A DNA stretch of 64,000 nt from an uncultured Candidatus Saccharibacteria bacterium (GCA_964532425.1 CAZHIA010000005.1:2772-66771), one strand, 5' to 3'. Numbered from the stretch's first letter, positions 3,866-47,547 are shown. Program-made: numbers and translations. The notes: generated by a model from the sequence alone, not told the origin.

Positions 3866-3930
3866 AAAATTAGTAATTTGTCAAGTTCTGAATCAAGTCG
3901 GCATCTTTCAACATCGAAAATGTTCTGCAT

Positions 3931-3992
3931 TGTAGCGTGCCGATTTATCGGCCAAATTCGCCTCTAAGCAGCCGATAAATCGGCACGCTACA
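3931..3992. repeat. 62-bp palindromic element, copy 1 (22-bp perfect arms TGTAGCGTGCCGATTTATCGGC, 18-nt loop)
   Basis: Second copy at 41788-41848 has identical arms and the same first 8 loop nucleotides CAAATTCG. Confidence 0.7.
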
Positions 3993-4088
3993 GAATTGTT
4001 GCTAATTTCGATGCTCAAAGATGAAGGCAATGAACCATGCGGTTCATTGCCTTATGATACCAACCGGGTGTGCCGATCGATGAAACGG

Positions 4089-5030: not shown

Positions 5031-5132
5031 GTCATTGCGAGGTCGAGAAATTTTGTGGTATAAATTTCTCGAGTGAAGCAATCTATTTCAAGGTAAGATT
5101 GCCGCGTCCGCCGGAGGCGGACTCGCAATGAC
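5031..5132. repeat. structured element A (GTCATTGCGA...TCGCAATGAC termini), candidate ncRNA or MITE. Paralogue at 10287-10392
   Basis: 10-bp terminal inverted repeats identical to element B. Internal hairpins CGAGAAATTT/AAATTTCTCG and GTCCGCC-GGA-GGCGGAC. Shared internal word TGAAGCAATCT. Confidence 0.55.
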
Positions 5133-5188: not shown

Positions 5189-5447
5189 TTATTGGCGCAA
5201 GATAACTGCTTTGAGGCGCGAGCGTGGCTGGGCCGGTCGCGGTTCGTACGTGGCGACCGCGGTAAAGCCCAGGGCGACCGGGATGGCCAGGAACGGTATG
5301 GCTAGCAGCTGCCACAGCGGCGTGCTGGTGATCTGGCTCAGCTGCGTGAGTGCACCGTACCGGAATTCCAGGTAAAAGGTCATGCCGGCGAGGCCCAGGG
5401 TCACGAACGTCATCACGACGCCGAAGATCAGTTTGAGAGTTTTCATA
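5189..5447 (-). CDS. small membrane protein (85 aa, 2 predicted TM helices)
   Basis: AAGGAGG 8 nt before comp. ATG 5447. The ORF-track start at 5626 is unlikely. Confidence 0.5.
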
Positions 5448-5462
5448 GTGATGTCCTCCTTA

Positions 5463-5657
5463 TCAGTTTTGGTTGTCAAGCATGTCCAATGAACAGCCGT
5501 AGTAGTCGCGTTCGTTTTGATGCGGATTGCACTTGCTTGCAACTCCGAACCAGATGTCTTCTCCGCCGAACTTCCGGTACAAGGCTTCTTTGTTTTCGCT
5601 TTCGACGATGCGGTCGCGCTCGTCAAGCGTTCTCAGTAAGTTTTTGGATTGCGGCAT
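5463..5657 (-). CDS. hypothetical small protein (64 aa)
   Basis: GAGGAGG 4 nt before comp. ATG 5657. Translationally adjacent to the downstream membrane-protein ORF. Confidence 0.5.
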   Translation of the reverse strand: MPQSKNLLRTLDERDRIVESENKEALYRKFGGEDIWFGVASKCNPHQNERDYYGCSLDMLDNQN

Positions 5658-6122
5658 GAGTCCTCCTCAGAATCCGTTTTCTGAAATGGGCTCTGAGGAA
5701 GAGATGATTTTCATCATCTCGGGTTTTGGCCTGTTCGGCCATTATGTACCCTCCTTACTCTTTTTTGTTATTACCGTACCAAGGCAGATGCCCTGCTGCT
5801 CCCATGGAGTCGTAGACTCTGTCACAAATCCAGTCCCAGACCCAGACGAGTCCTCCCCTGCAGTCGCAGACTCAGCCCTTTTAGGGTAAAGTTGCGGGGA
5901 GTACTCCGAGAATATGGCTTGGTTTGTGAAAACCAAATCATTCCAAGAATTATCTTGAATATGTATGGTCATGGCAGCAGGCAGGTGCCGCGGCACGCGA
6001 GAAGAGGTCTCAGTGGTGCTGCTATCGATCGCTCTTCAAGCGCGCCGGGCTGCATCTGTCTCAGTGCGGCCCGCAAGCCTGAACCGTGTAACTTCCACAG
6101 CCCAAGCCTGCGGAAAGTCCGC

Positions 6123-7149
6123 TTACTCCACGCGCACGCGCAGGGCTGCAAGTTCTTGCAGGGCCTGCTGGCGCAGTGTTTCGGCGGAAGACCGAAGTTG
6201 CTCCTGGTCGCGGGCGTACTGCTTCAAAGCTGTCTGGTGGTTAGCCAGCAGCTCGTCCACAGCAGCCTGGTGCGAGGCATACGCGAGTTGGTACTCGCCG
6301 AATGCCTGCTGGTACGAACGCTCCTGTTCCAGGTTGTAAGCCCGTACGGCGTCCTTGACCTGCTTCTTCAGCCCGTTCAGCTGCTTCTGCAGGTCATTGT
6401 ACTCAGCTTGAAGCGCGTTACGCTGCTCGGCGAAACCCACCAGCTCTTCGGCGGAGTACGCCTTCTCCCACCGGGTCACGACGACACCGGTCTGAGTCAT
6501 TTGCTCACCGCCTTTCGGCAGCGGACGAATGAGCTCGCGGAAGAGGCTCCCCTGCTCGGAGAGCAACTTGCCGATTGCAGCGGCGCGGGCGTTCAGTTCG
6601 TTCGCCTTTTTCCAGAAAGCGAAATCGAACTGCGCGAGAACCGCCGGCTTCAGGTTCGCTATCATCTCGTCGATGTTCGCGATGTCCATGAAGCGATCAG
6701 TTTCGCAGACCGTGGCAAGAGCGGGTCGCTCGGGCAGCTGCGGCGGTTCCGGAAGCTTGGGTCGCTCGGGCGCGTTCGACAGCTGCGGCGATAAGAACCT
6801 TCGCAGGTCCATCGACTCCAGCTCCTGTTGCAGGCGTTTGTACAACTTCACACCGTGCATCAGAACAGCCGTGACCGCGTTGCGCTCCGCCACCCCCGCA
6901 TACCCTTTCAGGTCTTCGGGCGTGACTTTCGGGCCGTCAATAGTCTGCGGTGTAGAGTTGCCAGCGCCAACGAACGACAGAACCTTGCGGAACACGCCGG
7001 CAACCGCATCGGTAATGCGGCCCCAGAACTCGTCGTTCTGCTGCTTGGCTTCGGCTTGACGGCGAGCGACCTCGGAGATCGACACACCACCGTTGTTGGT
7101 AAAGAACGTCGGCACCTGAGTGCCGAAAATCATGGTGAGTTTTTCCATG
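6123..7149 (-). CDS. hypothetical protein with C-terminal coiled-coil region (341 aa)
   Basis: SD GAGGGGG before comp. ATG 7149 (MEKLTMIFGTQ...). The C-terminal 130 aa is rich in Q/E/A/L heptads. Adjacent to rsr. Confidence 0.55.
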
Positions 7150-7506
7150 GTTTCCCCCTCTAAAACCATGATAAGTTCATGGCTTGAGAGGAGGAGAGAT
7201 GAAAATAATCATCTCTGCTGATTGCAATCAAAGTTGATTGCTTTCATCTTCCCTCCTTTTCGTTTTTAACAACTGGTGTGCGACCAGTATCACCCCGAGT
7301 TTAATGTCCCGCAGGCTCCCTGGACACTCCCCTTTAATTTGTCACTGATCCGGAACGGATCCCCGAGTACGCAGGACGCGTACTCGGGAGGCTTTCGGTC
7401 TTTTATAGCCCAGTGCTCCCGCCCTTTCTCCGCCGAGTGGCGGACGAAAGAGCGGGATTCGCGCAGTCAGACAGGGGCCCCGAAGAATTCGGGGCGGGCG
7501 GCGAAT

Positions 7507-9249
7507 TTAGGATTCGTCGCCCATCTGCGCGTCGCTGACGGCTTGCCCCGGCACCTCTAAAGGTGCCTGGGTCTGCCGGTCCTCTCGTGCCGCAAGTTGC
7601 ATCCTGCTAATCTCCCGAACTTGGCTTGCGCCGCCTTCGAGCATCAACGGAATGTACTTAACGACCGAGTCGCTCCATCCGTAGATGAAGTGAACGCCCG
7701 GTTCGCCGAACGGTGCAACAGCCGCTTTGTACGGCGCGATGGTCACCAGGAACGCTTGCGCGTCCTGGTTCACTTCGCGCTTGTACTGGCGCCATTGATC
7801 GAGGAATGAACCAGAGCAATCGTAATCGCTCTGGCCATACGCCCAATCAACGTTGTCGGTGATGCCGATGAACGCATCCACGCGAACCTTACGTTCGCGC
7901 AAATACTGGATCGGCGCCCCGACAGCCGTGCTGCCACCGCAGTACCCAGCAAGTCGTTGCGTGACGGACATAATGTCGTCACGCTTCGACAGGCCATGGT
8001 CCGGGTGAACCCATCCGTCGAACGGGAGCAGGACAGCCCGATTCTCGATGCGCCGCAATAGTGCGCCGGAAAGGATACCACAGATATCGATGTAACGCGC
8101 AGTCCCCTTTTGGGAGACCCGCGAACTCATCGAGCCCGAGACATCAGATCCGATCGCAACCGTGCGGCTGCCGAAAGACGGCATGCAGGCAAAGGAAAGG
8201 TTCAGCGCTTCGCGGAGAGCATCCGCAATGCGGCTGTCCGGTTCCCAGTTGCCCGCGTGCACAGGTAGCTCGTCGTCAAACAGGGAATCAAATTCATTCC
8301 CTGCGCCGGACGAGTACTTCTTCCAGGCATCGAAAAACCGGAACGGCAGAACCTTCGAACGCTCGACCGCCTGAGGTGAGGTGAGCTTTTCCACCGCCAC
8401 CGCTACACTCTTCTCGTCCGCGAATACTCCATGGCGCGTAAACGCCGCGAGCATGCGCAGGAGATTCATGTACGGGGCTTGGCGAAGCAGCTCTTCCCAG
8501 ATCCTCAACGTCATCCGCTTCATTGCGGGAGCGACGACTTCGTACGGCAACCGGCCATCCTGAATCAGGGTGGCGGCTTCGTACTCAGTTGTCGCCCGCT
8601 TTAAAGCTTCGAACGCGCGGATCTGCGGGTTCAGTGCGGGATCGCTCCCGAGCGCATTCCCCCTTCGTACCAGCCAGTCGAGACGCTCGGCGACCGCGGC
8701 CGTTGCAGGGCGCGGGTGGGTCATGCGAATGAGATCGCGGAGTACGATGCCCTTGGACCGCTTGGATCCGTACTTCAGGGCATGGTATTCCGAGATGTTC
8801 GCAAGCCACCGTGCCACCGCTTTGGCAGCGTAACCGCCGAGGCCACGTTTGCCGGGGATCTGGCCCGAGATCAGGAAAGTTGAAAACTTTCGCAGATCGT
8901 CAGGAAGCAGAACCACGCGGTCGAACGCAGCTTCGAAAGCCTCGCGGGTTTTCCCGCGGCCGGCTGCGAGCAAGGCCAGCGCCTTGACGTTCTGATCCTT
9001 AATGAGCCCCTTGGTGCGGCCGTAGACAACGGCCTTGGCCAGGAACTCCGGATCAGTGTCGCGCGCTCCGATGATCGTCTCCTGCCACTGTTCGTCGAGT
9101 TGACGCTTGGTGGCATAGAACGTATCACCGAAGACACCGACTGTCAGGAGCTGAACTACGCGCTCGCGCAGCGATCGGTTGTAGGCGGGCGCCCCCTCGT
9201 GGTTCACAAGGGACGCCTGGACATTGGCGAGAGTCGAAGTCTGTGTCAT
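7507..9249 (-). CDS. rsr: Ro60/Rsr ortholog (TROVE domain + C-terminal vWA with MIDAS DVSGSMSS)
   Basis: The N-terminus NHEGAPAYNRSLRERVVQLLTVGVFGDTFYATKRQL parallels the Rsr motif NxAGGFVY..RLDRFLILGSEGGTYY. The MIDAS-type motif IGSDVSGSMSS is present. SD AAGGAG before comp. ATG 9249. Confidence 0.82.
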   Translation of the reverse strand: MTQTSTLANVQASLVNHEGAPAYNRSLRERVVQLLTVGVFGDTFYATKRQLDEQWQETIIGARDTDPEFLAKAVVYGRTKGLIKDQNVKALALLAAGRGKTREAFEAAFDRVVLLPDDLRKFSTFLISGQIPGKRGLGGYAAKAVARWLANISEYHALKYGSKRSKGIVLRDLIRMTHPRPATAAVAERLDWLVRRGNALGSDPALNPQIRAFEALKRATTEYEAATLIQDGRLPYEVVAPAMKRMTLRIWEELLRQAPYMNLLRMLAAFTRHGVFADEKSVAVAVEKLTSPQAVERSKVLPFRFFDAWKKYSSGAGNEFDSLFDDELPVHAGNWEPDSRIADALREALNLSFACMPSFGSRTVAIGSDVSGSMSSRVSQKGTARYIDICGILSGALLRRIENRAVLLPFDGWVHPDHGLSKRDDIMSVTQRLAGYCGGSTAVGAPIQYLRERKVRVDAFIGITDNVDWAYGQSDYDCSGSFLDQWRQYKREVNQDAQAFLVTIAPYKAAVAPFGEPGVHFIYGWSDSVVKYIPLMLEGGASQVREISRMQLAAREDRQTQAPLEVPGQAVSDAQMGDES

Positions 9250-9303
9250 CTGAAATCTCCTTTTCTCGATGGGATGTCCGAAGCGCCTTGGGCGCTTGGT
9301 CTT

Positions 9304-9497
9304 CTTGCGGGAAGAGTTTTGTCCAAAATGATAGCGATGTTATACGGCGTCATGCTGAGCCTGCCTGCCGGCAGGCAGGTGCATCCGAAGCATCTCTCTT
9401 ACAAGCGAAGAGATTCTTCGATCGTCCGCTGAAGCGGACTTCCTCAGAATGACGCCTGTATCGTAAACATGTTTTTTAGACAAAACTCTTCCCGCAA
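9304..9497. repeat. MITE-like element with terminal inverted repeats GGCGTCATnCTGAG (core 9346-9456) nested in longer 57-bp imperfect inverted arms
   Basis: Second copy in opposite orientation at 43034-43126 shares the 14-bp terminal repeats and the internal word CCGAAGCATCTCT(CT)TAC. Internal perfect palindrome CCTGCCTGCCGGCAGGCAGG. Confidence 0.65.
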
Positions 9498-10286
9498 TAT
9501 TTCAAAGTGCAAAAGGCTAATAAAAACAGGTATCGCAAAAATGCGTATACCCGATTTACTTTCCTTTACCAGAATCGCTACCTGTATACCGATCCTGATA
9601 AAGGAGGGGTGGCTTTTCGGGCCACCCCACAGGTGTCGCCCCCGATCTTCGGGCAGCGAGTTCCCATGGTTCCTCCTTTTAGGCATGATTGTCTCGAAGT
9701 ACCCCCAACGAGCAGTCCTCCCCCCCGATTTGCACCGGGGATCAATGGACATATTTGCACAAGGCTTGTATTCGTCAATTGGATTGAAGTAGCCTCGTGG
9801 TGTATTCCTCCTCCCGCTTTACTGTTACGGGGATCAACGGATATTGTGCTAGGGGTGGTGTAGCTGTTTGCGGCGGGCCGGACCTCGTAGGCACTTTCCG
9901 GGCGCGTTTCGCCCGGCTCCCCGTCTGGTCCGCAAGGCCGCCCCGCTCTTTCACGAGAGGGACGGCAGACGATGTATTTGTCGAAGTATCCTCGCTTTGC
10001 TGTTCTCGTCCTTCGGTTTCTCTCGAGCTCTCATTCCATCCTCAGAACTTGCCAGCCGCTGCTGGACAAGCCGCCTTAAGATGATTTGATCTCGAAAGAA
10101 ACGGGTGAAGGAGTCAACGAACGAATTCGCAAGGAGTAAAGGCTTCGAGAAATATCCCGCCGCTTTTGCCCCAGGGATTTCAGGTCGGGCCGGATCATCC
10201 GGCTTGCCCTGCCCTGGTTTTACCTGCTCTCGATGAACAGGCGGCTCAGCTCCCTTTCGGGAAAGCTTTTGGGGCATGTTTTGATT

Positions 10287-10392
10287 GTCATTGCGAATCC
10301 AGAAATTTTTAAGCAATAAAATTTCAGGATGAAGCAATCTAAACACCTCAGAGTTGAAGATTGCTTCGTCGGATGCACTCCTCGCAATGACA
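10287..10392. repeat. structured element B, paralogue of element A (5031-5132)
   Basis: Same 10-bp termini GTCATTGCGA/TCGCAATGAC. P1-like stem CCAGAAATTTT/AAAATTTCAGG and an 8-bp GAAGCAAT/ATTGCTTC stem. Additional flanking inverted repeat GAAAGCTTTTGG/CCAAAAGCTTTC. Confidence 0.55.
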
Positions 10393-10995
10393 AAATGTAA
10401 CGTGAACCAAAAGCTTTCCCGAATAATATAGATAGATTGATAAAGATCTTTTTGTTTATTCCTCCCTAAGGCCTACCATAATCGGGTTAATGGCAGGCTT
10501 TGGGCAAGAATAAATGGGCATAATAAAACCGGGATACGGTAATCCTGTTCAGCAATTTGGATTGTCCGTGGTCCCGATTTATAGTTAGCATCTTTTCCAG
10601 TCGCCTGAAGCAGGTAAGGACTCTGGGCTCGCCCCGTTCCCGCCTCTGGCGGGTGCAATAATGCAATAATTGGACGGCTTAACTTTCCTCGGGCTTCAGG
10701 CTGACCGGAACGTGATGTTAATGAATTTTGACAAAGTGCTTTTTGTTTAATTTCAGCTTGCTCGGGTATGCTAGCAGAAAAATAGAGAGTTGTCAAGAGG
10801 TTTTAACAAAAAATTTCCAAAATATAGAAATACCCAATAAACAAGCATAAATTATGACATATATTGTGTTGAAAATAGATATCAAAATGTATGTATTTAA
10901 AGATTTAATGATTGAAAATTTAAAGATTGAGCACTTTCCTTCAACTGCGATTTTAAACCTAATAATCTCAATTTTAAAATATTTGTTAATAGGTA

Positions 10996-11024
10996 TTGAC
11001 AAAATATTGAATCTATGCTAATAT
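10996..11024 (+). promoter_or_regulatory. consensus sigma-70 promoter: TTGACA, 17-bp spacer, TAATAT, preceded by 200-bp AT-rich island
   Basis: TTGACA 10996-11001 and TAATAT 11019-11024. The upstream region 10800-10995 is extremely AT-rich (UP-element-like). Confidence 0.6.
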
Positions 11025-11030
11025 TTGTTC

Positions 11031-11192
11031 AGCTCAGTAAAGCCGGAAATTAGCAGTCTCCGGCCTCGGAAACTCAGATTGCGGTTGAATTCGACGGCAC
11101 AGGAGGTGCTCTTTATGGGTTCTTAAAAGCGGGACGGCCCCGCATCCATCCTTCGCGTTCGATTCGTCGGGCGCGGGGCCGGGATCCCCTTT
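11031..11192 (+). ncRNA. candidate small ncRNA (~160 nt), promoter-to-terminator, no ORF. Possible Y-RNA-like transcript given rsr proximity
   Basis: Starts about 7 nt after -10. Hairpin GCCGGA...TCCGGC. Words GGTTGAATTCGACGG and GCGTTCGATTCG (T-loop-like TTCGATT). Terminal stem CGGCCCCGC/GCGGGGCCG followed by TTTT (11189-11192). Confidence 0.4.
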
Positions 11193-11810
11193 TAAACCTA
11201 TAGAAGCGCCTAAATCAATAAGGAGGTAGAAATATGGGCGGGTTATGAACAACACCGCGTTGGGTTGGTTTATTTTAAAGAGTGTTTGCTGGGGAAATGC
11301 CACCATGGAACGGCTACACACTCCCAGGCGATTACTCGAGAAGTGAACCCAGGAAAGGGTCAGAATGTATATTCGTCGATTTTTTGACCGACTTAGTCGG
11401 TTAGCGAAGAGTACGTAGCCACCCGAAGGGTGGCCATTAACCAATCCACTGATTGTCCGCATGAGAGTCCGGCCGGAAACGCACAAGCATAGCTGCAATT
11501 CCCCCGGACTCTTCTCATATATATTGCTTTGGTGTACTATTTTAGTATAATAGCTTGCGATTGGTATTTTGTAACAGCCGCATTAGGGTGTGGGTCTATG
11601 AAATTCTAAATCTTAATTACGAAATTCTAAACAAATCACAAATCCCAAATTAGAAAATCTCAAACGGAGAGGTTTGGAATTTGAGTTTTGTAATTTGAAA
11701 TTTGTTTAGAATTTAGGATTTCGATATTCGAATTTTCTGACAATATTTTTTGAACATTAAATATTTCCGCGTTTGATCAGCGTTGCTATCGCGTCTGATC
11801 CGCGATCCAT

Positions 11811-12590
11811 ATGAACTTACTTCAAGAACTGCAAAATATTGGCCTAAGTGACAAGGAGGCCAAGGTTTACCTCGCCAATCTGGAGTTGGGCCAGTCTTCG
11901 GTTCAGAATATTGCCAAGAAGGCAGGAGTCAACCGGGCGACCACGTATGTCATTCTGAACTCGCTGATCAAGAAAGGTTTATGCAGTACCTTTGAACAGG
12001 ACAAGAAAACATTGTATGTCGCTTCGGATCCAAATCTGCTTGAAGGCGTTTTTGAAGTCCAAAAAAAGGAGCTGGAAGAGAAGCAAAGATATTTCCAGAC
12101 CATTGTTCCCCAGCTGAACCTCATTAACAACCGCCAGACCGACAAGCCCAAAGTAAAATTTTTTGAAGGCAAACAAGGGTTGATTAACTGCTTCATAGAG
12201 TTTACGGGCTACAATGGGGGTAAAGATGATTATTTCCGGTTGGCATTCCATCGTGATCGTTTAGAAAAGATTTTTACACCCGAAGAGAATGCGCGTTTTC
12301 GCGAAATGAGAAAGAAGAACCAGGGCAGCAGCAAAAGCAAAGTTTTATACAATAGCAAAGTACCAATTTCAGACACCACTGATGCCTTGCGCATACGACT
12401 GGATGAAGATAAATTCCCCCTGCCATGCGACATTGGAGTATTTGGAGATAATATCCGCATCCTCTCCGAAAGCAAGGAACTTTCCGGTATCCTTATTGTT
12501 GACCATGATATTGCCACCACCCTCCGTTCCCTCTTTGAGCTAGCCTGGGAAGCGGCTGAAGCCCGGGCGAAAAAATCCAAAGCAAGTTAA
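11811..12590 (+). CDS. TrmB-family transcriptional regulator (N-terminal wHTH)
   Basis: N-terminus LSDKEAKVYLANLELGQSSVQNIAKKAGVNRATTYVILNSLIKKGL resembles the TrmB/ArsR-type HTH. Upstream region has tandem and inverted AT-rich repeats. Confidence 0.65.
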   Translation: MNLLQELQNIGLSDKEAKVYLANLELGQSSVQNIAKKAGVNRATTYVILNSLIKKGLCSTFEQDKKTLYVASDPNLLEGVFEVQKKELEEKQRYFQTIVPQLNLINNRQTDKPKVKFFEGKQGLINCFIEFTGYNGGKDDYFRLAFHRDRLEKIFTPEENARFREMRKKNQGSSKSKVLYNSKVPISDTTDALRIRLDEDKFPLPCDIGVFGDNIRILSESKELSGILIVDHDIATTLRSLFELAWEAAEARAKKSKAS

Positions 12591-16142: not shown

Positions 16143-16276
16143 TGTAGTGCAGGCCCGTGGCCTGCAATAATGACGATTGTAATAGTGAATAAAAAACAGC
16201 CTCCGAAAGTTCGGAGGCTGTTGTGTTTATAGAACGACCCTGTACATCATGAGGCAGGCCACGGGCCTGCACTACA
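16143..16276. repeat. REP-like inverted pair (GTAGTGCAGGCC-CGT-GGCCTGC / GCAGGCC-ACG-GGCCTGCACTAC) bracketing a terminator hairpin (16193-16228)
   Basis: Same palindromic unit recurs at 42735-42756 and 47437-47457. Inner hairpin AACAGCCTCCGAA-AGT-TCGGAGGCTGTT. Confidence 0.65.
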
Positions 16277-23379: not shown

Positions 23380-23485
23380 ATTGAACAAAATTTAAAAAAT
23401 TGACAAAATTGACAAAATTGTGGTTACAGGCTGCAGTTTAATTTTGTCAATTTTGTTCAATTGTGTCATTTTTGTCAATTCCCTT
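23380..23485. promoter_or_regulatory. E1: ~105-bp element of 10-bp-phased TTGACAAAA direct repeats then inverted ATTTTGTCA repeats, abutting the dnaE ATG with no SD
   Basis: Near-identical to 45421-45526 upstream of recR apart from ~15 central nt. Confidence 0.65.
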
Positions 23486-26400
23486 ATGTCTTTCACCCAC
23501 CTCCACTGCCATAGCCATTATTCCCTGCTTGACGGTCTGTCCAAAACGGACCAGCTGATTTCGCGTACCAAGGAGCTCGGCATGGACAGCCTGGCTTTGA
23601 CCGATCATGGGGTCATGTACGGGACCATAGAATTTTATACTGAATGCATCGCTGCTGGAATCAAGCCGATCATTGGACTTGAAGCCTATATTGCTCCGCG
23701 CCGGTATACGGACAAGGAAGGTAAGATAGATGCGGACTATTTCCATCTGACATTGCTTGCCGAGACGTATGAGGGGTACAAAAACCTCATCATGCTGACC
23801 ACGGAAGCGCACATCAACGGTTTTTATTATAAGCCGCGGGTGGACACTGAGCTGCTCAAAAAATATAGTAAAGGCCTCATTGCACTTTCCGGCTGCATGC
23901 GCGGCGAAATTCCCCGCGCGGTTATGAATAAGTCCGAAGAAGAAGCCCAGAAAGTCCTGGAAAAATATTTGGATATTTTCGGGCGGGGCAACCTGTATAT
24001 CGAAATTCAGCGCAATGCCCGCGGTTATGACGAAAAAGAAGCGGAACTGAACACGCGCTTAGTAGAATTCGCCGGCAAGAATGGATTGCCGCTGGTGGCA
24101 ACTTCTGATTGCCATTATATCAATTCGGAAGATTATGAAGCGCAGGATGTTCTGGTCTGCATTGGTACCGGGCGGAACGTCAATGACACGGACCGGCTCG
24201 ACATGCGCGCCTATGATCTTTCCTTAAAATCGCCGGAACGCATGGCGGAGTTGTTTTCCGATCTCCCGGAAGCCGTCGAGAACAGCGCAAAAATTGCAGC
24301 GCGCTGCCAGGTTGAAATTCTTATTGACCAGCGTTATTTTGCCAAGATGGAAATTCCGGAAGGCTTTACCGTAGCTGACTATCTAAAAAAACAGGTGTAC
24401 GAGAAGGCAGTGCCGATTTACGGCGACAAGGACGGCAATTTGCCGCAGAACGTTGTTGACCGCATTGAGTATGAGCTTGGTATTATTTCCAAGAAAGGGT
24501 TTGATTCGTATTTCCTCATGGTGGCGGATATTGTGCAAGGCGCGCACAGCATTGGTGCCATTACCAACACCAGAGGGAGCGCAGCCGGTGCGATTATCGG
24601 CCATATTCTGGGAATCAGCCACATTGACCCGTTGTATTACCAGCTGCCATTCGAGCGGTTTTTGAACCCGTACCGACCGACGCCGCCCGATGTCGACTTG
24701 GATATTTCCGATCAACGCCGCGATGACGCCATCGCCTGGATATCGAATCGGTTTGGTCAGGACAAGGTTGCCCAGATTATCACGTTTGGAACAATGAAAG
24801 CGCGCGCGTCCATCCGCGATGTGGGCCGCGCTTTGGGAATTCCGTACAGCAAGTGCGACCAGATCGCCAAAATGATTCCCATGGGCAAGCAGGGGTTTGA
24901 TATGACGCTGCAGAAAGCCATGGAAATGAATCCGGAGTTTAAAGAGATCTATGACCGCGATCCGGACACGAACCGCATCGTTTCCATTGCCCAGAAACTC
25001 GAGGGCGGAGCGCGCCATGCGTCCATCCATGCCGCGGCTATTGCCATTACGCCTACTCCCCTCACCGATTACACGCCCTTGCAGCTGGAACCTGACGGCA
25101 CGCGCCATATTACGCAATATGACATGTATGCGCTCGATGCCGGTGCGTCCAGCAAGGCCTTAGGGGTGATCAAGATGGACTTGCTTGGTATCCGCAACCT
25201 GTCTATTCTTGAGCAGGCGGTCAAAATTACGGAAAAGCGCCGCAACGTAAAAATTGATATTTACAATCTCCCCCACCCTGATCCCAAAACCTTTCAATTG
25301 CTTGCCGATGGCCACACGTTTGGTGTGTTCCAGCTGGCCAGCTCCGGCATGACCCGGTATCTCAAGGAACTGAAACCAAAGGATATTTTCGATATCATGG
25401 CTATGATAGCGCTTTACCGTCCGGGGCCGATGAGTATTATTCCTAATTACATCGCGCGCCAGCACGGCAAGGAGAGGGTTGATTATTTTGATCCGCGCAT
25501 GAAGGATTACCTCAGCCGTTCACTCGGGCTGTTGGTCTATCAGGATGACGTTTTGCTGACCGCAGTCAATATAGCGGGCTACACCTGGGAAGAAGCGGAC
25601 AAGCTGCGCAAAGCTATGGGTAAAAAAATCCCGGAAGAAATGGCCAAACAGAAGGTCAAGTTCATTGACGGCTGCGTCAAAGCCGGTATTCCGCCGGCCC
25701 GCGCGACAGACCTGTTCGCACAAATCGAGCCATTCGCCGCGTACGGGTTCGGGCGCGCGCATGCTGCATCGTACAGCATGGTCTCCTACCAGACCGCGTA
25801 TATGAAAGCCAACTATACTGTGGAGTTCATGACCGCGCTCATGACTGCGGAAAGCGGCGATGAAACCAAAATTTATGCGGCCGTGGACGAGTGCAAGAGC
25901 CTCGGCATTGCCGTGTTGCCGCCCGATGTCAACGAGTCCCGCGGTGACTTTACCGTGGTGGACGACAAAACCATCCGGTTCGGGTTGAATGCCATCAAAA
26001 ATTTAGGATCTGACGTGGTAACCTCCATTATTGCCAGTAGAAAGGATGGCGGCCCATTTGCCGACCTTCAGGATTTTCTCATCCGCGCCCATACCAAAAC
26101 CATGAACAAAAAATCATGGGAAGCTTTGGTCAAAGGCGGGGCGCTCGACCGCTTCGGTGAACGCGGACAATTATTAGCCAACACCGAAGAGGTTCTCGAT
26201 TACGTCCGTGAGCATTTTAAAGCTGAAATGAGCGGTCAGAATTCCCTTTTCGGCAAGAGCCTGGGTATGGGCAAATTAAAATTGAAAGATTCACCACCGG
26301 CAACCAAGGAAGAAGCCATGGCTTGGGAAAAGGAACATTTGGGATTGTATGTTACCGCTCATCCGCTCGATAACTACCGCCAGGTCTTGTCCGGTTTTAC

Positions 26401-41618: not shown

Positions 41619-41787
41619 AAATTGCCTCCTGTTTTCTGTTCAATACGGCTTGGGTACTATCTGGCCATATTGACCCTATATTATAGCATAACTATGCGAT
41701 ATTGTCAATAGCCAAAACCCTAGGTTTTCGCTATATTTATTGGGTATATTTACCATTCTATTAATTTTACGCAACTTTTAGATCATT

Positions 41788-41848
41788 TGTAGCGTGCCGA
41801 TTTATCGGCCAAATTCGGATTGATGTCGCCGATAAATCGGCACGCTAC
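41788..41848. repeat. 62-bp palindromic element, copy 2
   Basis: Arms identical to copy 1 (3931-3992). Immediately upstream of dus. Confidence 0.7.
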
Positions 41849-41865
41849 GGTTCTGCTACTATTCT

Positions 41866-42990
41866 ATGTCTTTTTCCTGGCAACAACTTAAAGAACCGAT
41901 ATTTGCCCTGGCGCCCATGGAAGACGTGACTGATTGCGCATTTCGGGAAATGTTCGCTCGCTATAGCAAACCCTCCCTGACCCTCCCTTTTGCAAAGGGA
42001 GGGGGTGTTCCAACTCCCCTCTTTTCTAAAGAGGGGCAGGGGGAGTTCGTCATGTTCACGGAGTTCGTGTCCACGGACGGATTGATGCACGAGGAAGGCC
42101 GTAAGAAATTATTGCCGGATTTGGCGTATACGGAAATACAGCGCCCTATCATTGCGCAAATTTGGGGAACCGACCCGGAGAAATTTAGGAAAGTTGCCGA
42201 GTTGATAGTGGAACTGGGATTTGACGGTATTGATATCAATATGGGTTGCCCGCAGGCGAAAGAGATTGGAGTAGGTGCGTGCGCAGCGCTCATTCGCACC
42301 CCGGACCTTGCTGTAAAAATCATCAATGCGACTATTCAAGGTGCCGGTCCCCTGCCGGTTTCGGTTAAGACCCGCCTTGGGTATAGCAAGACAGATGAAA
42401 TGGAAGGCTGGATTTCCAGATTACTGCAAACGGACATCAAAGCACTGACGCTCCATGGCCGTACGAAAAAAGAAATGTCAAAAGTACCAACGCACTGGGA
42501 CAAGATCGCCGAGGCTGTCGAGATCCGTAATCGAGAAAACCCCAATGTGGTCCTTCTCGGCAATGGGGACATCCGTTCTCGCAAGGAAGGATTGCAGCGC
42601 GTAGCTGAGACCGGTGTTGACGGGGTTATGATAGGCCGCGGCGCATTTGGCTGTCCATGGTTTTTTAATCCGAATGTAATCGACCAACCCGTAGTGCAGG
42701 CCCCTGGCCTGCCAATTACAGAATCGTCAGCACAGCAGGCCACGGGCCTGCACTACATTACACCGCGAGAACGCTTACAGATTATGATCGAACATGCTGA
42801 ACTATTTGAGAAAATGTATACCGGCAAAAAACCATTCCAAATCATGCGCAAGCACTTTAAAGCCTACTGTTCCGGTTTTGCCGGCGCAGCCGAACTCCGT
42901 GCTCAGCTCATGGAAACCAGAGATGTTGCTGAGACAAAAACAGTTGTTGCAAATTATTTACAGGCAGAGAAACCCAGACAGGGCACCTGA
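41866..42990 (+). CDS. dus: tRNA-dihydrouridine synthase with ~22-aa in-frame insertion encoded by two palindromic hairpins
   Basis: APMEDVTDCAFR...INMGCP...HGRT are Dus motifs. The insertion SLTLPFAKGGGVPTPLFSKEGQGEF is encoded by CCCTCCCTTTTGCAAAGGGAGGG and CCCCTCTTTTCTAAAGAGGGG. Confidence 0.8.
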   Translation: MSFSWQQLKEPIFALAPMEDVTDCAFREMFARYSKPSLTLPFAKGGGVPTPLFSKEGQGEFVMFTEFVSTDGLMHEEGRKKLLPDLAYTEIQRPIIAQIWGTDPEKFRKVAELIVELGFDGIDINMGCPQAKEIGVGACAALIRTPDLAVKIINATIQGAGPLPVSVKTRLGYSKTDEMEGWISRLLQTDIKALTLHGRTKKEMSKVPTHWDKIAEAVEIRNRENPNVVLLGNGDIRSRKEGLQRVAETGVDGVMIGRGAFGCPWFFNPNVIDQPVVQAPGLPITESSAQQATGLHYITPRERLQIMIEHAELFEKMYTGKKPFQIMRKHFKAYCSGFAGAAELRAQLMETRDVAETKTVVANYLQAEKPRQGT

Positions 42991-45420: not shown

Positions 45421-45526
45421 ATTGAACAAAATTTAAATAATTGACAAAATTGACAAAATTTTGAATCAAGAATGCAGTTCAATTTTGTCAATTTTGCTCA
45501 ATTTTGTCATTTATGTCAATTAACTT
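45421..45526. promoter_or_regulatory. E2: near-identical copy of E1, abutting the recR ATG with no SD
   Basis: Left half ATTGAACAAAATTTAAATAATTGACAAAATTGACAAAATT. Right half GCAGTTCAATTTTGTCAATTTTGCTCAATTTTGTCATTTATGTCAATTAACTT. Confidence 0.65.
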
Positions 45527-46132
45527 ATGGCTAAACTCCCCTCTTCGCTCGACCGTTTAATTCGTGAGCTCTCCAAGCTTCCGGGTATTGGTCCAAAAAC
45601 CGCCCAGCGGCTGGCTTTTTATCTGCTCAAAAAAGATACTATAGACCTGTCTTCCTTGTCTCAAGCCATAGCTCAGGTCAAAAGCGGTATTGTATACTGC
45701 AGCATCTGCCACATGATGGCCGATTCAGACCCGTGTGCCATAGATAAGGATGACCGGCGCGACAAGCAGTTGGTCTGCGTGGTAGAAGAAACTCTCGATG
45801 CAGTAGCCATCGACAAGACCGGTCAGTATAATGGCGTTTTCCATGTGCTTGGTGGCGTACTGAATCCGTTAGAAGGAATCGGTCCTGAACAACTCCAGAT
45901 TGGCTCTCTGCTGGAGCGCATCGGCAGTCAGAATATACGCGAAATCATTATTGCCACCAATCCTACGCTCGAGGGTGAAACGACGGCCATGCATTTGGTC
46001 AAGGCTGCCAAAGAGCAATACCCGGACGTCAAAATTACCCGCATTGCGCGCGGCTTGCCCATGGGCGGAGACCTCGAATATGCGGATGATATCACTCTGA
46101 CAAGGGCATTGGAGGGACGGAGAGAATATTAG
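45527..46132 (+). CDS. recR: recombination protein RecR
   Basis: HhH motif, C4 zinc finger CSICHMMADSDPCAIDKD, Toprim domain. Confidence 0.9.
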   Translation: MAKLPSSLDRLIRELSKLPGIGPKTAQRLAFYLLKKDTIDLSSLSQAIAQVKSGIVYCSICHMMADSDPCAIDKDDRRDKQLVCVVEETLDAVAIDKTGQYNGVFHVLGGVLNPLEGIGPEQLQIGSLLERIGSQNIREIIIATNPTLEGETTAMHLVKAAKEQYPDVKITRIARGLPMGGDLEYADDITLTRALEGRREY

Positions 46133-47319: not shown

Positions 47320-47547
47320 TGACTAATTTATATAGGGTATTTGGATTCTATCAAAAACCGGGGAAAAAGTCAACAGGAACAAGCTTGTAGGTTGTAGTTT
47401 ATAGTTTGTAGATCATACGCCAAGACATGAGCCATATAGTGCAGGCCACGGGCCTGCTATACGGAGAGTGGAAAAGAAAAAGCACCACCTTGCGATGGTG
47501 CCAAAGTTGGCCATTGCCTTATTGCTTACCAGTCCCCGACGCTGGAC

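What the first reader, a model, noticed from the sequence alone, without database searches (positions are those of the whole stretch)
7507..11810. Ro60/Rsr ortholog adjacent to a 2.5-kb ORF-free, hairpin-dense region: candidate Y-RNA-like ncRNA locus
The 580-aa minus-strand protein has the TROVE N-terminal signature (…GAPAY…LRERVVQLLTVGVFGDTFY…, parallel to NxAGGFVY…RFLILGSEGGTYY of Rsr) and a C-terminal vWA with the MIDAS motif DVSGSMSS, so it is a Ro60 homologue. In bacteria that encode Rsr, one or more Y RNAs (YrlA/YrlB) are almost always encoded within a few kb, and they tether Rsr to exoribonucleases. Immediately beyond the rsr start lies 2.5 kb with no credible ORF in either direction. 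It contains nested inverted repeats, the second copy of a structured 100-nt element (10287-10392), a 200-bp AT-rich island, a consensus promoter and a terminator-bounded ~160-nt transcript. The words CUGGUCCGCAAGG (9926-9938) and UGGUCCCGA (10567-10575) resemble the 5' strand of the Ro60-binding helix of Y RNAs (UGGUCCGA), but I could not find a convincing 3' partner by eye.
Basis: partly seen in the sequence, partly recalled or inferred. Interest (0 to 1): 0.8.

Follow-up and report, generated by a model that had tools for sequence, protein, structure and literature searches.

The report
New RNA partners beside bacterial Ro60
A Ro60-like gene in an ultrasmall (Patescibacteria) bacterium is flanked on its own strand by two previously undescribed, conserved folded RNAs that are the likely counterparts of the Y RNAs bound by Ro60 elsewhere, while the hairpins and repeats that first drew attention are unrelated mobile repeats.

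Summary
The 580-aa minus-strand protein is a real Ro60/TROVE+vWA homologue, and the 2.56-kb gap upstream of it is ORF-poor. No Y_RNA, YrlA or tRNA model matches, although YrlA is detected beside distant Chloroflexi homologues (positive control). The 100-nt element (three copies) is a ubiquitous dispersed repeat. The AT-rich island is a conserved divergent promoter region, and its "consensus promoter" drives the TrmB-like gene. The UGGUCCGA-like words occur at chance level. Comparison with about 40 homologous loci shows a conserved cassette: TrmB-like regulator, a 1.2–2.9 kb gene-poor gap, then TROVE. Two new structured RNA families lie in it, always on the TROVE strand. Motif 2 (10136–9975, 9766–9688 and a degenerate 9855–9778) lies inside the gap. 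Both show strong covariation and give no significant hits in 843 kb of control DNA. All five strong motif-1 hits found through an RNA-only metagenome scan lie next to TROVE. These RNAs are most likely the Y-RNA-like partners of this Ro60 clade, but binding and expression are untested.

The parts
7507..9249 (-). Ro60/TROVE + vWA(MIDAS) protein gene, 580 aa
   Evidence: Pfam TROVE 2.9e-18 and vWA_Ro60 2.2e-10. PDB relatives are Rsr 2NVO at 5e-23 and Ro60 1YVP at 2.6e-20. There are 276 homologues, the closest at 64% identity.
7326..7478 (-). Motif 1: TROVE-3' structured RNA. Layout is P1, invariant GUCUGACUGCGCG, P2, P3 enclosing P4 (loop AUAAAAGACCGAA), P5 and P6, then invariant GAcAAAUUAA and the 3' strand of P1.
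   Evidence: Covariance model R1 scores 110 bits, E 1.5e-28. It starts 29 nt after the stop codon. Fold z-score is -7.0. Covariation is shown.
9975..10136 (-). Motif 2, unit X (H1 CCUUGCG/AGCGAGG, H2 GUUC/GAAC, tail AUACUUCGACAAA)
   Evidence: Model R2 scores 36.7 bits, E 3.7e-6. The minimum-free-energy fold recovers H1 and H2, z -4.3.
9778..9855 (-). Motif 2, unit Y, degenerate copy
   Evidence: R2 scores 12.1 bits, and only with filters off. The tail GAGGCUACUUCAAUCC is recognisable by eye.
9688..9766 (-). Motif 2, unit Z (H2 GUCC/GGAC intact, H1 weakened: CCUUGUG / UUGGGGG)
   Evidence: R2 scores 23.1 bits. It is also an nhmmer hit. Its own fold is not significant, z -0.6.
10590..10712 (-). 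RNA1: promoter-proximal structured RNA with a 15-bp closing stem carrying a one-nucleotide 5' bulge. Found only in the closest relatives.
   Evidence: Three-way alignment with L002 and L158: the closing stem is fully replaced but still pairs, and the inner hairpin covaries. Fold z -5.4. Core words occur only in L002 and L158.
10768..10796 (-). Sigma-70-type promoter TTGACA-17-TAGCAT (with TG) pointing toward the RNA array and TROVE
   Evidence: Promoter scan. Conserved in L002 and L158.
10461..10520 (-). Conserved hairpin block (GCCUGCCA..UGGUAGGC) followed by GGGAGGAAU
   Evidence: Three-way alignment with compensated changes.
9606..9628 (-). Terminator-like hairpin between the motif-2 array and TROVE
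   Evidence: Terminator scan.
11811..12590 (+). TrmB-family HTH regulator, the conserved neighbour in the cassette
   Evidence: Pfam TrmB 1.2e-15. It lies upstream of TROVE in 24 of the 38 fetched homologue loci, in 4 metagenome loci, and in the gene tables of 2 loci held without DNA.
10996..11024 (+).
   Evidence: Promoter scan. An equivalent promoter (11 of 12 matches) points toward TrmB in L002.
10256..10423 (.). Dispersed repeat copy B (10287-10391) with a flanking 25-nt inverted repeat. This is an insertion and not part of the Ro60 system.
   Evidence: It is absent from L002 and L158.
9285..9517 (.). Dispersed repeat copy C (9347-9465, diverged) with a flanking 44-nt inverted repeat. This is an insertion and not part of the Ro60 system.
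5031..5132 (.). Dispersed repeat copy A

Best explanation
The window carries the Ro60 (TROVE+vWA) cassette of a Patescibacteria genome related to Ca. Doudnabacteria. The cassette is organised as follows.

A TrmB-like regulator and the Ro60 unit are transcribed divergently from a conserved AT-rich promoter pair. On the Ro60 strand, the promoter at 10796-10768 is followed by:
1. A lineage-specific structured RNA (RNA1).
2. Two to three tandem copies of a conserved RNA (motif 2).
3. The Ro60 ORF.
4. A second conserved RNA (motif 1), starting 29 nt after the stop codon.

Shown here: both motifs are real conserved RNA structures with compensatory changes. They are specific to loci encoding this Ro60 clade, and they always lie on the gene's strand.

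Inferred: they are released from the operon transcript(s) and bound by the Ro60 protein, acting like Y RNAs as regulators or tethers of the Ro60 ring. The invariant unpaired blocks of motif 1 would be the protein contact sites. These blocks are GUCUGACUGCGCG, GAUAAAUUAA and the loop AUAAAAGACCGAA, which contains a GGUCCGAA-like word. The RNAs lack the tRNA-like module of YrlA, so they would be a new class of Ro60-associated RNA.

For: Protein: Pfam TROVE plus vWA_Ro60. Best solved relatives are Rsr and Ro60.

Synteny: TrmB, then a 1.2-2.9 kb gene-poor gap, then TROVE, in most CPR-type loci. prmC-prfA-TrmB matches L002 and L158, and PrfA is 77% identical.

Motif 1:
- 13 anchor-defined copies, all on the TROVE strand. 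Twelve start 1-81 nt after the stop codon, and the L158 copy overlaps the stop by 11 nt.
- Model R1 finds four unseeded copies in TROVE loci at 22-72 bits (L009, L033, L159, L012) and one copy in the window at 110 bits.
- The best hit in 843 kb of control DNA is 11 bits.
- 89.6% of cells are paired against 69% in shuffles. 13 of 16 pairs have changes on both sides. Covariation score is 0.384 against 0.093 or less when the partners are slid.
- RNAalifold independently recovers P1 covariation.
- P3 permutation test: mean run 5.47 against 3.89+-0.26, with 0 of 5000 permutations reaching it.
- An RNA-only metagenome scan gave 16 pattern matches. The 5 that score 109-125 bits are exactly the 5 with TROVE immediately upstream on the same strand.

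Motif 2:
- On an unfitted MAFFT alignment H1 is 99% paired, with AU:8/GC:8 and CG:7/UA:7 swaps. Slid controls are 24-61% paired.
- 47 R2 hits in TROVE loci, all on the TROVE strand, usually two per locus. Controls reach 17 bits at most.
- In L009, L019, L014 and L015 the copies lie downstream of TROVE, so the motif is not tied to a 5' leader.

Precedent (Chen et al. 2014, PMC4201824): bacterial Y RNAs lie within 4 kb of the Ro60 gene on the same strand, come two or more per species, and are processed from polycistronic precursors. The authors failed to find YrlA in some Ro60-encoding bacteria and expected variant Y RNAs.

Co-variation of RNA class with protein clade: Chloroflexi relatives (about 40% identity) carry YrlA/tRNA-like hits instead.
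Against: - There are no expression, processing or binding data.
- No Rfam Y_RNA, YrlA or tRNA match, so homology to known Y RNAs is not shown.
- The GGUCCGA-like word sits in a hairpin loop rather than in the 5' strand of the terminal stem, and it does not fit GNCGAAN0-1G exactly.
- The proposed GUCU/AGAC pairing is invariant, so it cannot be tested by covariation. The GUCC variants in L013 and L159 are not compensated.
- A terminator-like hairpin (9628-9606) separates the motif-2 array from TROVE. No sigma-70-like promoter is seen just upstream of the ORF, so the transcript architecture is uncertain.
- Window unit Z has a weakened H1, and its own fold is not significant.
- RNA1 rests on three sequences only.
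Confidence: 0.6

Rival explanations
1. Motifs 1 and 2 are cis-acting parts of the Ro60 mRNA, for example autoregulatory binding sites, stability or processing elements, or a riboswitch-like leader. They would not be free-standing Y-like RNAs.
For: Motif 1 begins 1-81 nt after the stop codon, like a 3' UTR element. Motif 2 usually lies 230-800 nt upstream of the start codon. No separate promoter was found for either. In several loci motif 1 is followed by a terminator-like hairpin (sequences).
Against: Motif 2 lies downstream of TROVE in L009, L019, L014 and L015, so its position relative to the ORF is not fixed. It occurs in tandem copies. Motif 1 is modular and is split in L159 and L012. Known Y RNAs are likewise cut out of operon transcripts (PMC4201824). 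The two readings are not mutually exclusive.
Confidence: 0.25
2. The conserved RNAs belong to another function carried in the cassette, such as targets or cofactors of the TrmB-like regulator or independent sRNA genes. On this reading they are only syntenic with TROVE.
For: The TrmB-like gene is as conserved a neighbour as the RNAs. A conserved 22-nt box sits at the start of the RNA array.
Against: Motif 1 always abuts the TROVE stop codon, including in loci where TrmB is not seen, such as L013 and L033. RNA class changes with TROVE clade.
Confidence: 0.08
3. One reading: a Y RNA or YrlA homologue is encoded among the hairpins, the 100-nt element or the ~160-nt promoter-terminator unit of 9250-11810, with the UGGUCCGA-like words as its Ro60-binding strand.
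For: A Ro60 gene is adjacent, the region is ORF-poor, and it has many stable hairpins.
Against: No Y_RNA, YrlA or tRNA hit even at E<=10, while YrlA is detected in the Chloroflexi control loci. The 100-nt element is a dispersed repeat found in at least 120 viral-contig stretches, and none of the 120 fetched loci (978 kb) encodes TROVE. The promoter at 10996 is the conserved TrmB promoter. The words occur at chance frequency and on the opposite strand.
Confidence: 0.03
4. The gap is non-functional spacer filled by mobile repeats and decayed sequence.
For: Three copies of one dispersed repeat and one of another occupy about 450 nt of the gap and its surroundings. An independent assembly breaks inside copy B.
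Against: Sequence and structure are conserved with compensatory changes across lineages whose TROVE proteins are only about 50-60% identical.
Confidence: 0.03

Closest known systems
Bacterial Ro60 (Rsr) with Y RNAs: D. radiodurans Yrn1/Yrn2; Salmonella and Mycobacterium YrlA/YrlB (Rfam RF02553)
   Same: A Ro60/TROVE+vWA protein has two or more structured ncRNAs encoded within 4 kb on the same strand, plausibly cut from a shared transcript. The RNA ends pair into a closing stem next to highly conserved nucleotides. A GGUCCGA-like word (AGACCGAA) is invariant.
   Different: There is no sequence or structure match to YrlA, and no tRNA-like D or T arms. One RNA sits directly 3' of the ORF. The conserved word is in a hairpin loop. 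The protein scores far below the NCBIfam Rsr equivalog cut-off (102 against 900 bits). The neighbouring regulator is TrmB-like, not RtcR, and no rtcB or rtcA genes are present.
Metazoan Y RNAs (Rfam RF00019) and nematode stem-bulge RNAs
   Same: Small RNAs whose 5' and 3' ends pair, with conserved nucleotides near the stem that serve as the Ro60 site.
   Different: No covariance-model match. Different size and architecture (a multi-helix junction). Operon-encoded rather than transcribed by polymerase III.
REP/MITE-like dispersed structured repeats (this applies to elements A, B and C only)
   Same: Short (70-140 nt), quasi-palindromic, highly structured, multi-copy, intergenic, and present in many unrelated contigs.
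   Different: A specific consensus (GTCATTGCGAGG...GAAGCAATCTC...GAGATTGC...CTCGCAATGAC) with variable side hairpins. I found no named family for it in Rfam or in the paper library. The mobilisation mechanism is unknown.

Membership tests
Ro60/TROVE protein family | TROVE (HEAT-repeat ring) domain | tested here: met
   Pfam PF05731 at 66.7 bits against a cut-off of 23. Aligns to Rsr 2NVO over residues 14-473 at E 5e-23.
Ro60/TROVE protein family | C-terminal Ro60-type vWA domain with MIDAS motif DxSxS | tested here: met
   Pfam PF25045 at 41.1 bits against a cut-off of 27.7. DVSGSMSS at residue 369. D369, S371 and S373 are invariant in 23 homologues.
Rsr equivalog (NCBIfam NF041674) | Score at or above the curated equivalog cut-off | tested here: not met
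   102 bits against a cut-off of 900. This is a distinct Ro60 clade centred on Patescibacteria.
YrlA / bacterial Y RNA (RF02553) | Match to the YrlA covariance model | tested here: not met
   No hit at E<=10 in 7000-12000 or at gathering threshold in the window and 30 homologue loci. Positive control: the model hits L023 (39 bits) and L035 (30 bits).
YrlA / bacterial Y RNA (RF02553) | tRNA-like module (D arm, T arm, acceptor-like stem) | tested here: not met
   ARAGORN finds no genes in the window. No RF00005 hit even at E<=10.
YrlA / bacterial Y RNA (RF02553) | Encoded within 4 kb of the Ro60 gene on the same strand (criterion of Chen et al. 2014) | tested here: met
   Motif 1 starts 29 nt after the stop codon. 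Motif 2 lies 440-890 nt upstream of the start codon. All are on the minus strand.
YrlA / bacterial Y RNA (RF02553) | GNCGAAN0-1G / GGUCCGA-like Ro60 contact motif near the 5' end | tested here: inconclusive
   AGACCGAA(A)G is invariant in motif 1 and matches GGUCCGAAGG at 7 of 10 positions. It lies in the P4 loop, not near the 5' end, and does not fit GNCGAA exactly.
YrlA / bacterial Y RNA (RF02553) | Bound and stabilised by the Ro60 protein; tethers an effector such as PNPase | not testable with these tools
   Needs immunoprecipitation, gel shift or knockout data.
Metazoan Y RNA (RF00019) | Match to the covariance model | tested here: not met
   No hit. I did not run a positive control for this model.
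Dispersed GTCATTGCGAG repeat (elements A, B, C) | Terminal inverted words GTCATTGCGA / TCGCAATGAC enclosing a GAAGCAATCT / AGATTGC hairpin; multi-copy in unrelated contigs | tested here: met
   A and B carry both exact termini. C has diverged termini but the same four-way fold. At least 120 IMG/VR stretches match, with up to 5 per contig.

The most novel reading that the evidence does not exclude
Motifs 1 and 2 are the long-missing Y RNAs of the large Patescibacteria-centred Ro60 clade. They would be a new Y RNA class without tRNA mimicry. In it, the Ro60 contact element (AGACCGAA together with GUCU/GACUGC) would be presented in a permuted, loop-plus-junction arrangement, and the whole RNP cassette would be controlled by a dedicated TrmB-like regulator. 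That would show that Ro60-RNA partnerships are ancient, but that the RNA scaffold has been reinvented at least twice in bacteria.
Probability: 0.45. Interest if true: 0.75.

Novelty: new variant of a known kind. Interest (0 to 1): 0.62.

Why it matters
Ro60 is a conserved RNA quality-control protein and a major human autoantigen. Its function depends on its partner Y RNAs. In bacteria only the YrlA/Yrn type is known, and its discoverers reported Ro60-encoding bacteria with no identifiable Y RNA.

This work provides two well-supported candidate partner RNA families, with covariance models and about 70 instances, for a large and otherwise uncharacterised Ro60 clade in ultrasmall CPR bacteria. 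It also identifies a conserved regulator. The question becomes directly testable, through gel shifts with recombinant protein or through metatranscriptome mapping.

It also adds two new structured RNA families to a phylum in which very few ncRNAs are known.

Tried and rejected
- Rfam at gathering threshold on the whole window, and at E<=10 on 7000-12000, gave only miRNA-type noise on long hairpins.
- ARAGORN found nothing in the window.
- I first suspected the three four-way-junction elements (A, B, C) might be Ro60-specific RNAs, because all three lie within 5.4 kb around the gene. I rejected this: their words are absent from 36 homologue loci, abundant in unrelated viral contigs, and never next to TROVE there.
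- Literature searches with the repeat words and the motif words returned only primer or siRNA coincidences.
- The ~160-nt + strand unit has a weak fold, lies on the TrmB strand, and is not conserved beyond 11048.
- ORFs in the gap have no Pfam hit and no tblastn conservation.
- Scans of viral contigs with motif-1 and motif-2 patterns found nothing.
- Two source contigs of close relatives (P0002, P0014) could not be fetched as DNA.
- The MAFFT register blurred P3 and P4 of motif 1. I handled this with constrained single-sequence folds and a register-free permutation test.
- The TrmB-like protein has no relative of solved structure by sequence.
- The exact sequence of the 348-aa downstream protein is not in the protein collection, and it has no Pfam hit.

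Full report
**1. Observation.**

The minus-strand ORF 7507-9249 encodes 580 aa. It matches Pfam TROVE (2.9e-18) and vWA_Ro60 (2.2e-10). Its closest solved relatives are D. radiodurans Rsr (2NVO, 5e-23), Xenopus Ro60 (1YVP) and human RO60.

It scores only 102 bits against the NCBIfam Rsr equivalog cut-off of 900. It therefore belongs to a separate clade of at least 276 proteins, with 64% identity or less to the query. The fetched genome loci of its relatives come mostly from Patescibacteria/CPR MAGs.

The 2,561-nt gap 9250-11810 has only short ORFs (154 aa or less). None has a Pfam match or a conserved translation in related loci.

The inverted repeats, the second copy of the 100-nt element, the AT-rich island and a + strand promoter are all present.

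**2.

No Rfam family reaches threshold in the window. No Y_RNA, YrlA or tRNA hit appears even at E<=10, and ARAGORN finds nothing. The library does contain YrlA (RF02553) and detects it just upstream of TROVE in distant Chloroflexi homologues (39 and 30 bits). The negative result is therefore meaningful.

*The 100-nt element.* It exists in three copies: A at 5031-5132, B at 10287-10391, and a diverged C at 9347-9465. Each folds into a closing stem plus three hairpins, with z-scores of -6 to -7.
- Its words are absent from 36 Ro60-homologue loci.
- None of those 120 loci (978 kb) encodes TROVE.
- An independent assembly of the same organism ends inside copy B.
- B is missing at the homologous position of the two closest relatives.

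These are insertions of a ubiquitous dispersed repeat.

*Other features.*
- The AT-rich palindrome at 11601-11735 is a second dispersed repeat.
- The AT-rich island holds a divergent promoter pair that is conserved in L002.
- The ~160-nt unit behind that promoter folds weakly (z -2.4).
- UGGUCCGA-like words occur at chance frequency, 46 against 44.8+-6.2 expected. Both cited words lie on the strand opposite to everything conserved.

**3. The conserved cassette.**

tblastn shows a TrmB-family HTH gene (window 11811-12590; Pfam 1.2e-15) upstream of TROVE in 24 of the 38 fetched homologue loci, separated by 1.2-2.9 kb of gene-poor DNA. The gene tables show the same arrangement.

L002 (Ca. Doudnabacteria) and L158 share the full prmC-prfA-TrmB / gap / TROVE synteny with the window. 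Their PrfA is 77% identical, which places the window in Patescibacteria.

The ORF-poor gap is therefore a conserved trait of the clade, not an accident of this genome.

**4. Motif 1.**

Sensitive blastn showed that the DNA just 3' of the stop codon is about 68% identical in loci whose TROVE proteins are only about 53% identical.

*Copies and architecture.* Anchored extraction gave 13 copies, all on the TROVE strand. Twelve start 1-81 nt after the stop codon, and the L158 copy overlaps the stop by 11 nt. All fold into the same architecture:
- P1, the closing stem.
- The invariant strand GUCUGACUGCGCG.
- P2, a variable hairpin.
- P3, which encloses P4, P5 and P6. P4 carries the invariant loop AUAAAAGACCGAA.
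- The invariant strand GAUAAAUUAA, then the 3' strand of P1.

*Covariation.* RNAalifold on the MAFFT alignment recovers P1 with CG:7/UA:6 and AU/UA/CG swaps. On the model-derived alignment:

| Measure | Observed | Control |
|---|---|---|
| Cells forming a standard pair | 89.6% | 69.2% in shuffles (0 of 500 reach it) |
| Pairs with changes on both sides | 13 of 16 | – |
| Covariation score | 0.384 | 0.093 or less when partners are slid |

That alignment is fitted to the model structure, which favours it. P3 was not in the model. A register-free permutation test gave a mean helix run of 5.47 against 3.89+-0.26, with 0 of 5000 permutations reaching it.

*Specificity.* Model R1 finds four unseeded copies at 22-72 bits (L009, L033, L159, L012) and exactly one copy in the 64-kb window, at 7326-7478(-), 110 bits. 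Its best hit in 843 kb of unrelated DNA is 11 bits.

*Independent ascertainment.* A metagenome scan with an RNA-only pattern returned 16 stretches. The five that score 109-125 bits with R1 are exactly the five with TROVE immediately upstream on the same strand. The other eleven score 17.6 bits or less.

*Modularity.* In L159 and L012 the motif is split into a roughly 40-nt module (P1 plus the two invariant strands) and a separate hairpin carrying the invariant loop.

**5. Motif 2.**

A second element recurs on the TROVE strand. Its consensus is:

CCUUnnn - UUUUGUCC - nUUGAY - [variable hairpin] - GAGGACUGC - nn - nnnGAGG - WUACUUCRA

*Covariation.* On an unfitted MAFFT alignment of 16 units, H1 is 99% paired, with AU:13/GC:3, AU:8/GC:8 and CG:7/UA:7, and an invariant U.G pair. 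H2 swaps GUCC/GGAC with GUUC/GAAC and GCCC/GGGC. Slid controls fall to 24-61% paired.

*Distribution.* Model R2 gives 47 hits at E<=1 in 425 kb of TROVE loci. All are on the TROVE strand, usually two per locus. They include subclades that lack motif 1. Controls peak at 17 bits.

*Window copies.* The window has units at 10136-9975 (36.7 bits) and 9766-9688 (23.1 bits), plus a degenerate unit at 9855-9778 (12.1 bits).

In L009, L019, L014 and L015 the units lie downstream of TROVE, which argues against a 5'-leader riboswitch.

**6. Promoter-proximal RNA1.**

A three-way alignment of the window, L002 and L158 shows the following elements in order:
- A conserved promoter: TTGACA-17-TAGCAT at 10796-10768(-).
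- A conserved 22-nt box.
- An RNA of about 125 nt (10712-10590). Its 15-bp closing stem with a one-nucleotide bulge is entirely replaced yet still pairs, and its inner hairpin covaries. Fold z is -5.4.
- A second compensated hairpin block.

The core words of RNA1 occur only in those two relatives, so support for it is thin.

**7. Mechanism.**

*Shown:* two RNA families with conserved structure, strictly linked to this Ro60 clade and co-oriented with the gene.

*Inferred:* they are the clade's Y-RNA-like partners. This rests on the established pattern described by Chen et al. 2014 (PMC4201824). Bacterial Y RNAs are encoded within 4 kb of the Ro60 gene on the same strand. There are two or more per species. 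They are processed from polycistronic precursors. The authors also expected variant Y RNAs where YrlA was not found.

RNA class tracks protein clade. The Chloroflexi homologues, at about 40% identity, carry YrlA/tRNA-like RNAs instead.

The invariant AGACCGAA(A)G resembles GGUCCGAAGG at 7 of 10 positions, and the invariant GUCU can pair with its AGAC. This pairing cannot be tested by covariation, and the two GUCC variants are not compensated.

Expression, processing and binding are untested. The transcript architecture is uncertain: there is a terminator-like hairpin at 9628-9606, and no recognisable promoter directly upstream of the ORF.

**8. Novelty.**

Neither motif is in Rfam 15. I found no paper linking CPR bacteria with Ro60-associated RNAs.

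The system is of a known kind, Ro60 plus adjacent ncRNAs. The RNAs are new families without the tRNA-like module, and the regulator is different. I classify it as a new variant of a known kind.

**Verdict.**

The cited structural evidence does not.

Noticed in passing
window 5031-5132, 9347-9465, 10287-10391 (flanking inverted repeats 9285-9328/9474-9517 and 10256-10280/10399-10423): A ubiquitous dispersed structured repeat with consensus GTCATTGCGAGG..GAAGCAATCTC..GAGATTGC..CTCGCAATGAC. It has no Rfam match. At least 120 IMG/VR stretches match its words. Copies B and C each sit at the tip of a long inverted repeat made of local sequence, which suggests insertion with inverted duplication of the target. 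One arm of B's inverted repeat is homologous to L002 and L158.
   Followed up: partly
window 11601-11735: An AT-rich 135-nt palindromic element that also occurs, in both orientations, in several of the viral contigs carrying the first repeat (L138, L053, L079, L128, L094). It is a second dispersed repeat family.
   Followed up: partly
window 7507-9249; L002, L158, L004, L006, L010, L012 TROVE ORFs: TROVE ORFs are 10-17 GC points richer than the rest of their loci in all seven lineages checked (for example 0.60 against 0.48 in the window and 0.58 against 0.41 in L158). This is unexplained.
   Followed up: partly
L023 2282-2411, 3086-3332; L025 2508-2637; L028 3738-3886; L035 3226-3369, 3719-3913; L037 3465-3580: Distant Chloroflexi/Herpetosiphonaceae TROVE loci carry 116-149-nt matches to the tRNA model and sub-threshold YrlA matches immediately upstream on the same strand. 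These are probably canonical tRNA-mimic Y RNAs.
   Followed up: partly
L005 8417-8557; L007 6986-7412; L020 6149-6279: tmRNA-model hits lie 0.6-2.9 kb downstream of TROVE in three CPR loci from different classes. Two of them are only 131-141 nt long yet span the whole model. Proximity of tmRNA or a tRNA-like-domain RNA to TROVE may not be chance.
   Followed up: no
L014, L015, L017, L018, 0-330 nt after the TROVE stop: This subclade lacks motif 1. Instead it shares another downstream pattern (GGUUUCACAC .. UUGGCAACAG .. AAAAGUGA), followed by a hairpin CCUCCAUUUUUGAGA..UCUCAAA..GGAG. This may be a third TROVE-linked RNA family.
   Followed up: no
window 10728-10749 and 10437-10458: A 22-nt box (TAAACAAAAAGCACTTTGTCAA on the TROVE strand) sits just downstream of the TROVE-ward promoter and is conserved in L002 and L158. 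A second copy lies 291 nt further on. It is a candidate operator for the TrmB-like regulator.
   Followed up: no
window 7189-7258: A long hairpin with GGAGG / CCUCC ends lies between motif 1 and the next gene (it gave a spurious mir-577 hit). L002 and L158 have hairpins with the same ends at the same place.
   Followed up: no
L159 5753-5816; L012 5608-5710: Motif 1 occurs in a split form: a roughly 40-nt hairpin holding only P1 and the two invariant strands, followed by a separate hairpin with the AUAAAAGWCYGAA loop. This is a natural dissection of the motif into two modules.
   Followed up: partly
window 5189-7169 (minus strand): Downstream of TROVE and on its strand lie a 348-aa ORF and several small ORFs with strong Shine-Dalgarno sequences, including an approximately 85-aa predicted membrane protein. 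They are GC-rich, have no Pfam match, and are not conserved in the related loci.
   Followed up: partly
window 23380-23491 / 45421-45532; 3930-4004 / 41787-41861; 16143-16178 / 42722-42757 / 47434-47465: Other repeat families occur in the window: a 112-nt repeat (87% identity) rich in TTGACAAAATT words upstream of two genes, and GC-rich hairpin repeats.
   Followed up: no
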